Source of the DNA: Escherichia coli
GTDB lineage: Bacteria; Pseudomonadota; Gammaproteobacteria; Enterobacterales; Enterobacteriaceae
Length of the DNA stretch: 64,000 nt
Strand: one strand, 5' to 3'
Assembly (NCBI RefSeq): GCF_048403405.1
Contig: NZ_CP183129.1
A program made the position numbers. Below are positions 39,795 through 42,700 of this stretch, in pieces. Positions within the stretch are counted from its first letter, which is position 1. Each line of letters begins with the position of its first letter.

Positions 39795-42700
39795 TAATGA
39801 TGTGCCACATCCGGCATGGTATGCCGGATGTGGCGTATGCTGATAAGACGCGCCAGCGTCGCATCAGGCAACCGGCTTGGGCGTTAGATGTCGGATGCGG
39901 CGTGACCGCCTTATCCGACCTACGGGGTGGAGCACTTCACGGCAGTTTAGCGGACTACCGCGTTGTCAATTTTCTCTTCCGCCTTCCAGATGCGGTACTT
40001 CACATCCACATTGTCTGGCGTATACACCACGATCGGCAGCTTGCTGTTATAACGCAGCATTCCGGCATCGCCCAGATACGCGGTGACAAATTTCTTCTCT
40101 TTCTTGCCATCCGGGCAGGCCATCATCGTCGAAACCGGGGAACTGACTTTATCAAAGACATAATAATCATAGCCCCAGCCTTCCAGCGTTTTGCTTTCCA
40201 GCTTCCCGCCGAGACGATGCAAATTGCAATCGACTTCCAGCGTCTGACCGATTAACAGTTCTACTTTCAGGGTAGATTCATCTTCTTGCGGGGTTAACTG
40301 AATCACCTGACGCTTCATGCCTTTTTCAGCTTGCGGATAAGGCGCGATTTTTTCCAGTGGCTGGACGCTCTCTGCCGCCCAGGCGGAGGTGGTGGCGAAA
40401 GCGGCAAACAATACTGCAGGTAGAATGGTCTTCATTTTTGCTTTCCTTCTTCATTTATAGGTTTTCACCGATGATGTCGCTGAAGGTTAACATATTCATC
40501 AGATTTATTAATTTGCTTTATGAATAACTTAAAGAACATTCAGATAATTTTACCTGCTCTTTTAGTGTTAAATTCTGATGAGAGAGCAAACCAACAGAAA
40601 TATTTCTGGTGAATTAATCGCTATATAAATATGTTTATAACCATTTGAAATGTGAGCAAAAGCCCGTTTTTGCCACGCTTCCCGCCACTCTTTTGATCCT
40701 GCTACAGGTTTTACCCCGATCGGGGTATGCATCTTTGACACATCCTTTAATATCTTAGCGGCTATAAAAATGGCTTATTAATTATGCGGTTTATTTGGTC
40801 GCTCTCAATTTTCAGAGCGCGTTAATGATGGAAGGTCAATGTGAAGATTGATGCATCCCGTCGGGGCATACTCACTGGTCGCTGGCGCAAAGCCAGTAAC
40901 GGTATCCGTCCGCCCTGGTCCGGTGATGAATCTCATTTTCTGACCCATTGCACCCGCTGCGACGCCTGTATTAATGCTTGTGAAAACAACATTCTGCAAC
41001 GCGGCGCGGGTGGCTATCCGAGTGTTAATTTCAAAAATAACGAGTGCAGCTTCTGTTACGCCTGCGCGCAGGCTTGCCCCGAATCGCTATTTTCTCCGCG
41101 CCACACCAGGGCCTGGGATTTGCTGTTCACCATCGGGGAGGCGTGCCTGGCGTATCAAACAGTTGAATGCCGCCGCTGTCAGGATAGCTGTGAGCCAATG
41201 GCAATTATCTTTCGCCCGACGCTCTCCGGGATCTACCAGCCGCAACTTAATAGCCAACTTTGCAACGGATGTGGAGCATGTGCAGCCAGCTGTCCGGTAT
41301 CAGCCATAACTGCGGAGTATCTCCATGCACACTAACTGGCAAGTTTGCAGCCTGGTCGTGCAGGCCAAAAGCGAACGAATTTCAGACATCAGCACCCAAC
41401 TGAACGCCTTTCCCGGCTGTGAAGTTGCTGTCAGCGACGCGCCGAGCGGTCAGTTGATTGTGGTGGTGGAAGCAGAAGACAGCGAAACGCTGATTCAAAC
41501 CATTGAGTCAGTACGCAACGTAGAGGGCGTGCTGGCGGTGTCGCTGGTTTATCACCAGCAGGAAGAGCAAGGTGAGGAAACACCATGAAACTCAGTCGTC
41601 GTAGCTTTATGAAAGCTAACGCCGTTGCGGCCGCTGCGGCGGCTGCCGGTCTCAGCGTGCCGGGCGTTGCCCGCGCCGTTGTTGGTCAGCAGGAAGCCAT
41701 TAAATGGGATAAAGCGCCGTGCCGTTTCTGCGGTACTGGTTGCGGCGTTCTGGTCGGAACGCAGCAGGGGCGTGTGGTGGCCTGTCAGGGCGACCCGGAC
41801 GCACCGGTTAACCGTGGTCTGAACTGCATTAAGGGCTATTTCCTGCCCAAAATCATGTACGGTAAAGACCGTTTGACGCAGCCGCTTCTGCGTATGAAAA
41901 ACGGTAAATATGACAAAGAAGGCGAATTTACCCCAATCACCTGGGATCAAGCCTTCGATGTGATGGAAGAGAAATTCAAAACCGCCCTGAAAGAAAAAGG
42001 GCCGGAATCGATCGGTATGTTCGGTTCTGGTCAGTGGACTATCTGGGAAGGTTATGCCGCGTCCAAGCTGTTTAAAGCGGGATTCCGTTCGAACAACATC
42101 GACCCGAACGCGCGTCACTGTATGGCGTCGGCGGTAGTTGGCTTTATGCGTACCTTTGGTATGGATGAGCCGATGGGCTGCTATGACGACATCGAGCAGG
42201 CTGATGCGTTTGTGCTGTGGGGCGCGAACATGGCGGAAATGCACCCGATCCTCTGGTCGCGCATCACTAACCGTCGTCTCTCTAACCAGAACGTCACCGT
42301 GGCGGTGCTTTCTACCTACCAGCATCGTAGCTTCGAGCTGGCGGATAATGGCATCATCTTTACGCCGCAATCAGACCTGGTGATCCTGAACTACATCGCC
42401 AACTATATCATTCAAAACAATGCGATAAATCAGGACTTCTTTAGCAAACACGTTAACCTGCGCAAAGGGGCGACGGACATCGGCTACGGTTTACGTCCGA
42501 CCCATCCGCTGGAAAAAGCAGCGAAGAATCCAGGTTCTGACGCCTCCGAACCGATGAGCTTTGAAGATTACAAAGCCTTCGTTGCTGAGTATACGCTGGA
42601 AAAAACTGCCGAAATGACCGGCGTGCCGAAAGACCAGTTAGAACAACTGGCGCAGCTGTATGCCGATCCGAACAAGAAAGTCATCTCCTACTGGACGATG

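What the first reader, a model, noticed from the sequence alone, without database searches (positions are those of the whole stretch)
40619..40727. Composite napF control region with ModE, FNR and a perfect NarP/NarL 7-2-7 site
Within 110 bp upstream of napF there is a ModE-like palindrome (cgctatataaatatgtttataacc), an FNR half-site arrangement (ttgat-N4-ctaca) and a perfect 16-bp palindrome taccccgatcggggta. This is the expected architecture for nitrate, anaerobiosis and molybdate control of periplasmic nitrate reductase and shows that the nap-ccm regulon is wired normally.
Basis: partly seen in the sequence, partly recalled or inferred. Interest (0 to 1): 0.25.

Follow-up and report, generated by a model that had tools for sequence, protein, structure and literature searches.

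The report
Known E. coli napF promoter region
This is the well-studied control region of the E. coli periplasmic nitrate reductase (napF) operon, essentially identical to the laboratory strain K-12, so the finding is correct but ordinary.

Summary
They lie 114-222 bp upstream of the napF GTG (40841), not within 110 bp of it. From 40634 to napF the sequence is identical to K-12 MG1655. The only difference inside the finding is G/A at 40633, a common polymorphism in the unconstrained ModE spacer. The centre-to-centre distances (20 and 89 bp) equal those implied by the positions I recall as published (FNR -64.5, NarP/NarL -44.5, ModE -133.5). In 12 enterobacterial lineages with different upstream genes, the TTGAT half-site, the 7-2-7 site and a -10 hexamer keep identical spacing. 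The ModE site is kept only in the Escherichia, Salmonella, some Citrobacter and one unnamed lineage. Three corrections apply. The FNR site is weak (7 of 10) and is not distinguishable from chance by sequence alone. "Perfect" describes the symmetry of the NarP site, not its fit to the heptamer consensus. Verdict: already known, low interest.

The parts
40619..40642 (.). ModE operator-type palindrome CGCTATATA-AATATG-TTTATAACC, centre 40630.5 (-133.5 if +1 = 40764)
   Evidence: It has 2 mismatches to the 24-bp pattern and is the only match in the window, against 0.13 expected. The pattern was validated on K-12 modA and moaA. The half-sites are conserved and the 6-nt spacer is variable in Escherichia, Salmonella, C. 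sedlakii, C. amalonaticus and L008. The G at 40633 (A in K-12) lies in the spacer; the window's 63-mer with G is exact in 2824 of 5416 genomes.
40651..40666 (.).
   Evidence: On its own it is weak in E. coli (3 mismatches; 184 found against 223 expected). A site at the identical offset, starting 61 nt before the start of the NarP site, is present in Salmonella and two Citrobacter species (2 mismatches), Shimwellia (1 mismatch) and C. freundii (0 mismatches, TGTGAGGAAAATCACA). The block TTTGAAATGTGAGCAAAAGC is conserved in alignment A2. Crp control of napF is the subject of Stewart et al. 2009, of which only the title was seen here.
40693..40706 (.). FNR site TTGAT-CCTG-CTACA, centre 40699.5 (-64.5): consensus distal half, degenerate proximal half
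   Evidence: It matches the consensus at 7 of 10 positions, which is not above chance by sequence. TTGAT starts exactly 19 nt before the NarP site in all 14 sequences from 12 lineages, while the right half varies. An FNR ChIP-seq peak is reported at napF/yojO with a low motif score of -5.37 (PMC3688515 supplement).
40712..40727 (.). NarP/NarL 7-2-7 site TACCCCG-AT-CGGGGTA, centre 40719.5 (-44.5)
   Evidence: It is unique in the window. A 7-2-7 site with at most 2 mismatches to the consensus is present upstream of napF in all 14 sequences. The perfect palindrome occurs only in E. coli and Escherichia sp. MOD1. The literature places the site at -40 to -49 (PMC4549865).
40748..40753 (+). TAATAT, candidate -10 of the minor upstream promoter P2
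   Evidence: Read from the sequence. The P2 assignment comes from my recollection of Stewart et al. 2003. The hexamer is not conserved in Trabulsiella, Buttiauxella, Cedecea or Pluralibacter.
40751..40756 (+). TATCTT, -10 hexamer of the major promoter P1
   Evidence: A TAnC(T/G)T hexamer lies at +39 to +44 from the start of the NarP site in all 12 lineages. It places +1 near 40763/40764, which agrees with NarP at -44.5.
40764..40840 (+). napF leader (inferred P1 start at 40764) with Shine-Dalgarno GGAAGG at 40829-40834
   Evidence: The start is inferred from the -10 position and the literature geometry; it was not measured here. GGAAGG is conserved in alignment A2. The leader shows no significant RNA structure (z = 0.15).
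40841..41335 (+). napF (GTG start, 164 aa), first gene of napFDAGHBC-ccmABCDEFGH
   Evidence: NCBIfam TIGR00402 napF equivalog, 243 bits against a cut-off of 102. The operon ORFs are all intact.
53015..53662 (-). narP, the response regulator that acts at the 7-2-7 site, just downstream of ccmH
   Evidence: NCBIfam NF007708 NarP equivalog, 457 bits against a cut-off of 343, with profile positions 1-215 of 215 matched at residues 11-225 of the ORF.

Best explanation
This is the E. coli napF (aeg-46.5) operon control region, an activator-dependent sigma-70 promoter that integrates several signals.

Shown here: the sequence, its near-identity to K-12, the geometry of the sites and their conservation.

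Taken from the literature on K-12:
- Under anaerobiosis, FNR binds the site centred at -64.5.
- With low nitrate or nitrite, phospho-NarP binds the 7-2-7 site centred at -44.5, exactly two helical turns downstream.
- Together they activate promoter P1 (-10 TATCTT, start near 40764).
- Phospho-NarL competes for the same 7-2-7 site and antagonises NarP at high nitrate.
- Molybdate-bound ModE binds at -133.5 and ties expression to molybdenum supply.
- A CRP-type site near -105.5 adds catabolite control.

Inferred: this strain's promoter behaves like K-12's, because every site is identical. The single difference, at 40633, lies in the variable spacer of the ModE palindrome.
For: - The spacer is present in 5421 of 5426 complete E. 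coli genomes. It is identical to K-12 across the CRP, FNR, NarP and core promoter elements.
- The centre-to-centre distances are 20 bp (FNR to NarP) and 89 bp (ModE to NarP). These equal the differences between the recalled published positions -64.5, -44.5 and -133.5. PMC4549865 gives -40 to -49 for the 7-2-7 site.
- TTGAT, the 7-2-7 site, an invariant TGC and a -10 hexamer keep identical spacing in 12 lineages with unrelated upstream genes. The mean frequency of the commonest base per column is 0.80 in the core against 0.54 further upstream.
- The 75-mer 40686-40760 is exact in 4960 of 5421 E. coli genomes. A control 75-mer at 40530-40604 is exact in 294 of 5375.
- The ModE pattern was validated on modA and moaA.
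- Held papers report an FNR ChIP-seq peak at napF/yojO, NarP-dependent napF-lacZ expression and ModE and IscR regulation.
- napF and narP are both intact.
Against: - No binding or transcription was measured for this strain.
- The start site is inferred, not mapped here.
- The primary papers that mapped the sites (PMC107417, PMC135098, PMC193976, PMC2632075) are not held. The values -64.5 and -133.5 and the P1/P2 assignment therefore rest on my recollection plus geometric consistency.
- The FNR and E. coli CRP motifs are no better than chance on sequence alone.
- A simple sigma-70 scan finds no plus-strand promoter. That is expected for an activator-dependent promoter but gives no positive support.
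- The ModE site is absent at this position in six of the twelve lineages, so it is a lineage-restricted addition.
Confidence: 0.93

Rival explanations
1. The conservation reflects the protein-coding gene yojO on the opposite strand (40568-40732), not transcription-factor sites.
For: RefSeq annotates yojO across this stretch in K-12 and many other strains. An ORF of 57 aa is present in the window.
Against: - The ORF shrinks to 31, 27 and 32 aa in E. albertii, C. sedlakii and C. amalonaticus.
- It matches no NCBIfam family.
- Its 3' half is the most polymorphic part of the spacer.
- The conserved blocks are palindromic, keep fixed spacing, and persist in genera with no eco/yojO neighbourhood at all.
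Confidence: 0.03
2. The ModE-like and FNR-like matches are chance resemblances in AT-rich spacer DNA, and only the NarP/NarL palindrome is functional.
For: FNR-like matches at up to 3 mismatches are frequent (332 in the window). No ModE element is found at the equivalent position in six lineages.
Against: - TTGAT sits at the identical offset in 14 of 14 sequences.
- There is an FNR ChIP-seq peak at this spacer.
- The ModE element is as close to the pattern as the modA operator.
- The ModE half-sites are conserved while its spacer varies across Escherichia, Salmonella and Citrobacter.
Confidence: 0.03
3. The G at 40633 (A in K-12) alters ModE binding, so molybdate control in this strain differs from K-12.
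For: It is the only difference from K-12 within the finding, and it lies next to the right half-site.
Against: - The six spacer positions differ freely among species (AATATG, AATATA, ATTTTG, ATTATG, AAGTAT, AATAAT, AGAATC).
- The window's 63-mer carrying G is exact in about half of all complete E. coli genomes (2824 of 5416).
Confidence: 0.05

Closest known systems
E. coli K-12 napF (aeg-46.5) operon control region (Darwin & Stewart 1995; Darwin et al. 1998; McNicholas & Gunsalus 2002; Stewart et al. 2003, 2009)
   Same: It is the same locus, with the same flanking genes (eco, napF). The CRP, FNR, NarP/NarL and core promoter sequences and all spacings are identical.
   Different: There is one base difference in the ModE spacer (40633 G versus A) and four more substitutions further upstream, outside the finding. 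Both alleles at 40633 are common in E. coli.
ModE operators of modA and moaA in E. coli K-12
   Same: They share the 24-bp dyad CGnTATATA-N6-TAyATAnCG. napF has 2 mismatches, modA 2 and moaA 1.
   Different: The napF site lies far upstream (-133.5) and acts positively according to the literature. That the modA site overlaps its promoter and represses is from my own knowledge. The right half at napF is TTTATAACC rather than TACATAnCG.
Other FNR plus NarL/NarP co-regulated promoters with 7-2-7 sites (nirB, nrfA, fdnG)
   Same: They combine an FNR site with a 7-2-7 inverted heptamer pair (PMC2718512).
   Different: At napF the FNR site is at -64.5 and the response-regulator site lies between FNR and the polymerase at -44.5. 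That the other promoters typically have FNR near -41.5 with the Nar sites upstream is from my own knowledge.

Membership tests
E. coli napF operon control region | Lies directly upstream of an intact napFDAGHBC-ccmABCDEFGH operon | tested here: met
   NapF matches its equivalog at 243 bits. All nap and ccm ORFs are present at 40841-52980.
E. coli napF operon control region | Sequence identity with the characterised K-12 control region | tested here: met
   There is 1 substitution in the 109-bp finding, and none from 40634 to the start codon.
E. coli napF operon control region | FNR and NarP/NarL site centres 20 bp apart, and ModE centre 89 bp upstream of the NarP centre | tested here: met
   The centres are 40699.5, 40719.5 and 40630.5. 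The published positions themselves are recalled, apart from -40 to -49 for the 7-2-7 site.
E. coli napF operon control region | Sites correctly placed relative to the mapped transcription start | tested here: inconclusive
   No start-site data could be reached. A -10 hexamer conserved in 12 lineages predicts +1 at about 40763/40764, consistent with -44.5.
E. coli napF operon control region | Regulator binding and anaerobic, nitrate and molybdate response in this strain | not testable with these tools
   This needs footprinting and reporter assays.
NarL/NarP 7-2-7 site | Two inverted TACYYMT heptamers separated by 2 bp | tested here: met
   The arrangement is exact. Each heptamer matches at 6 of 7 positions, with G or C at position 7. 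Orthologous sites are present in all 14 sequences.
FNR site | Match to TTGAT-N4-ATCAA | tested here: inconclusive
   The match is 7 of 10, no better than chance by sequence. The left half and its offset are invariant in 14 of 14 sequences, and a ChIP-seq peak is reported.
ModE operator | 24-bp dyad of the modA/moaA type | tested here: met
   It has 2 mismatches, equal to modA. The half-sites are conserved while the spacer varies.
CRP site | Match to TGTGA-N6-TCACA | tested here: inconclusive
   The E. coli site has 3 mismatches, which is chance level. Orthologous sites at the same offset have 0-2 mismatches in Salmonella, Citrobacter and Shimwellia.

The most novel reading that the evidence does not exclude
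Across Enterobacteriaceae the napF FNR site is always a "one-and-a-half" site. The promoter-distal TTGAT is invariant, the half next to NarP is degenerate, and the site sits exactly 20 bp from the 7-2-7 site. The most novel reading not excluded is that this weakness is selected. On this reading, FNR occupancy or productive positioning at -64.5 depends on phospho-NarP bound beside it, which would make anaerobic induction conditional on nitrate. On the same evidence, P2 and yojO would be Escherichia-specific by-products with no function.
Probability: 0.2. Interest if true: 0.3.

Novelty: already known. Interest (0 to 1): 0.08.

Why it matters
It confirms that this strain carries the standard cis-regulatory wiring for periplasmic nitrate reductase, an enzyme used at low nitrate, for example in the gut. 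Nothing here changes current understanding. The modest additions are comparative:
- The FNR half-site, NarP site and -10 module is fixed in spacing across the family.
- The CRP and ModE sites are later, lineage-restricted additions.
- The annotated gene yojO is probably just the regulatory DNA read on the other strand.

Tried and rejected
- **Primary papers:** I tried to read the mapping papers (PMC107417, PMC135098, PMC193976, PMC2632075, PMC1251606, PMC317290). None is held.
- **Site strings in the literature:** Searching the library for the three site sequences found nothing. Searching for napF with 44.5 and 64.5 found only an unrelated paper.
- **Fusion endpoints:** The supplement of PMC9262595, wanted for the -85/+19 fusion endpoints, is not held.
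- **Genome scan:** A degenerate NapF-motif DNA scan of the species-representative genomes returned only 4 loci. I obtained wider sampling through a protein search and contig look-ups instead.
- **Promoter scan:** A simple sigma-70 scan found no plus-strand promoter.
- **Leader RNA structure:** I tested the napF leader for a conserved RNA structure. The z-scores ranged from -0.83 to 0.15 and the covariation term was positive, so I rejected it.
- **Consensus scans:** Scans for the FNR and CRP consensus gave chance-level counts, so those two sites cannot be called from sequence alone.

Full report
**Observation**

The window between 40436 and 40840 is the spacer between eco (ecotin, 39947-40435, minus strand) and napF (GTG at 40841), followed by napD and napA.
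- CGCTATATAAATATGTTTATAACC at 40619-40642
- TTGAT-CCTG-CTACA at 40693-40706
- TACCCCGATCGGGGTA at 40712-40727

The block lies 114-222 bp upstream of the napF start codon, so "within 110 bp upstream of napF" is not accurate.

**Chance**

- **NarP/NarL palindrome:** The 16-mer is unique in the window, with 0.02 matches expected at up to 2 mismatches. Against the heptamer consensus TACYYMT-NN-AKRRGTA it has two mismatches, one at position 7 of each heptamer. Matches of that quality are not rare (4 found, 2.6 expected). "Perfect" therefore describes its symmetry rather than its fit to the consensus.
- **ModE-like element:** It has 2 mismatches to CGNTATATA-N6-TATATANCG and is the only match in the window at up to 3 mismatches (0.13 expected). 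I recalled this pattern from memory, so I tested it on K-12. It finds exactly one site upstream of modA (CGTTATATTGTCGCCTACATAACG, 2 mismatches) and one upstream of moaA (CGCTATATACATGATTACATAGCG, 1 mismatch).
- **FNR-like element:** It matches TTGAT-N4-ATCAA at 7 of 10 positions. At that level the window has 332 matches against 238 expected. It cannot be called from sequence alone.

**Identity with the characterised promoter**

The spacer occurs in 5421 of 5426 complete E. coli genomes. Aligned with K-12 MG1655, it is identical from 40634 to the napF start. The only difference inside the finding is 40633, G here and A in K-12. The window's 63-mer containing G is exact in 2824 of 5416 genomes, so this is a common polymorphism.

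**Geometry**

The site centres are 40630.5 (ModE), 40699.5 (FNR) and 40719.5 (NarP/NarL). The distances of 20 and 89 bp equal the differences between the positions I recall from the K-12 literature: FNR -64.5, NarP/NarL -44.5, ModE -133.5. A held paper gives -40 to -49 for the napF 7-2-7 site (PMC4549865). This places the P1 start near 40764.

The primary mapping papers are not held, so the -64.5 and -133.5 values rest on recollection plus this consistency.

Held papers do support each regulator:
- NarP-dependent napF-lacZ expression (PMC1802743).
- An FNR ChIP-seq peak at napF/yojO with a low motif score of -5.37, with NarL, NarP, IscR, ModE and BasR listed as co-regulators (PMC3688515 and supplement).
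- ModE activation and IscR repression (PMC8139620).

**Comparative evidence**

A degenerate DNA scan gave E. albertii, an Escherichia sp. and two Citrobacter species. A NapF protein search followed by contig look-ups added Salmonella, C. freundii, an unnamed lineage at 71% identity, Trabulsiella, Shimwellia, Buttiauxella, Cedecea and Pluralibacter. The gene upstream of napF differs among them: ecotin, a sulfate transporter, a narQ-like sensor, nrfA, an aegA-like gene and others.

I anchored every region on its 7-2-7 site. All 14 sequences, representing 12 lineages, share these features:
- A 7-2-7 site with at most 2 mismatches.
- TTGAT starting exactly 19 nt before the 7-2-7 site.
- An invariant TGC directly after it.
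- A TAnC(T/G)T hexamer at +39 to +44, which in E. coli is TATCTT at 40751-40756.

The mean frequency of the commonest base per column is 0.80 across this core and 0.54 further upstream.

The promoter-proximal half of the FNR site is degenerate everywhere: CTACA, CAACA, CCACC, CTCCC, CTTGC, CTACC, CCACG, TCACG, CCCCT, CAACG, TTGCG. The perfect 16-bp palindrome is confined to E. coli and the close Escherichia sp.

It is not conserved in the more distant genera.

**Additional sites**

- **CRP-type site:** TGTGA-N6-GCCCG at 40651-40666 is weak in E. coli (3 mismatches, chance level). A site at the identical offset has 2 mismatches in Salmonella and two Citrobacter species, 1 in Shimwellia and 0 in C. 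freundii. This fits the reported catabolite control of napF (Stewart et al. 2009; only the title was seen here).
- **ModE dyad:** It is found at the same offset in Escherichia, Salmonella (1 mismatch), C. sedlakii, C. amalonaticus and the unnamed lineage. It is absent in the other six lineages. Its half-sites are conserved while the six spacer bases vary freely, which is why 40633 G/A is unlikely to matter.

**Population level**

The 75-mer from the FNR site through the -10 (40686-40760) is exact in 4960 of 5421 genomes. A control 75-mer at 40530-40604 is exact in 294 of 5375.

**Trans factors and operon**

NapF scores 243 bits against its equivalog model. A full-length NarP (457 bits, profile positions 1-215 of 215) is encoded at 53015-53662 on the minus strand. 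All nap and ccm ORFs are open. fnr, narL and modE were not examined here.

**Mechanism**

This is an activator-dependent sigma-70 promoter, consistent with the simple scan finding no consensus plus-strand promoter. According to the K-12 literature:
- FNR at -64.5 and phospho-NarP at -44.5 act together on P1.
- Phospho-NarL competes for the same site at high nitrate.
- ModE-molybdate at -133.5 and CRP further upstream modulate the output.
- IscR represses aerobically.

What is shown here is the sequence, its identity with K-12, the geometry and the conservation. Binding and regulation in this strain are inferred.

**Rivals**

- **yojO coding constraint:** This is unlikely to explain the conservation. 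The ORF is 54-57 aa in E. coli but 27-32 aa in E. albertii and Citrobacter. It has no family match. Its 3' half is the most variable part of the spacer.
- **Chance matches for ModE and FNR:** This is contradicted by the fixed offsets and the conservation pattern described above.

**Verdict**

The system is already known, so interest is low.

Noticed in passing
window 40568-40741 (minus strand): The annotated small gene yojO overlaps the ModE, CRP, FNR and NarP sites. The ORF is 54-57 aa in E. coli but only 27-32 aa in E. albertii and Citrobacter. It has no family match, and its conserved N-terminal peptide is simply the NarP and FNR DNA sites read on the other strand. It is probably not a real conserved gene.
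   Followed up: partly
window 39798-39950: The eco-mqo spacer holds one REP/BIME-type unit of about 111 bp, where K-12 MG1655 has six tandem copies in a 714-bp spacer. Related units lie near 27997-28081 and 60037-60073.
   Followed up: partly
window 40781-40808 (minus strand): A sigma-70-like promoter, TTGAGA-16-CATAAT (10 of 12 matches), points away from napF towards yojO and eco. It overlaps a 2-mismatch FNR-like site, TTGGTCGCTCTCAA (40795-40808), inside the napF leader. It is not conserved in Citrobacter.
   Followed up: no
window 40800-40819: There is a small hairpin, CGCUCU-N8-AGAGCG, in the napF leader upstream of the Shine-Dalgarno sequence. Citrobacter has a hairpin of different sequence at the same place. 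Folding z-scores are near zero and the covariation term is positive, so there is no support for a conserved structure.
   Followed up: yes
L006 (Salmonella enterica contig), 901-1392: Salmonella enterica encodes a NapF at 75% identity, directly upstream of napD and napA, with the same promoter architecture. This contradicts a sentence in review PMC8139620 saying NapF is absent from Salmonella.
   Followed up: partly
window 40735-40740: A perfect TTGACA hexamer lies between the NarP site and the -10. It has no -10 partner at 16-18 bp and is not conserved in other genera.
   Followed up: no
L012 (Cedecea) and L013 (Pluralibacter), upstream of 901: In Cedecea a narQ-like sensor kinase gene is divergent from napF. 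In Pluralibacter nrfA (cytochrome c552) is divergent from napF. In those genera the FNR-NarP module therefore sits in shared spacers with other nitrate and nitrite genes.
   Followed up: no
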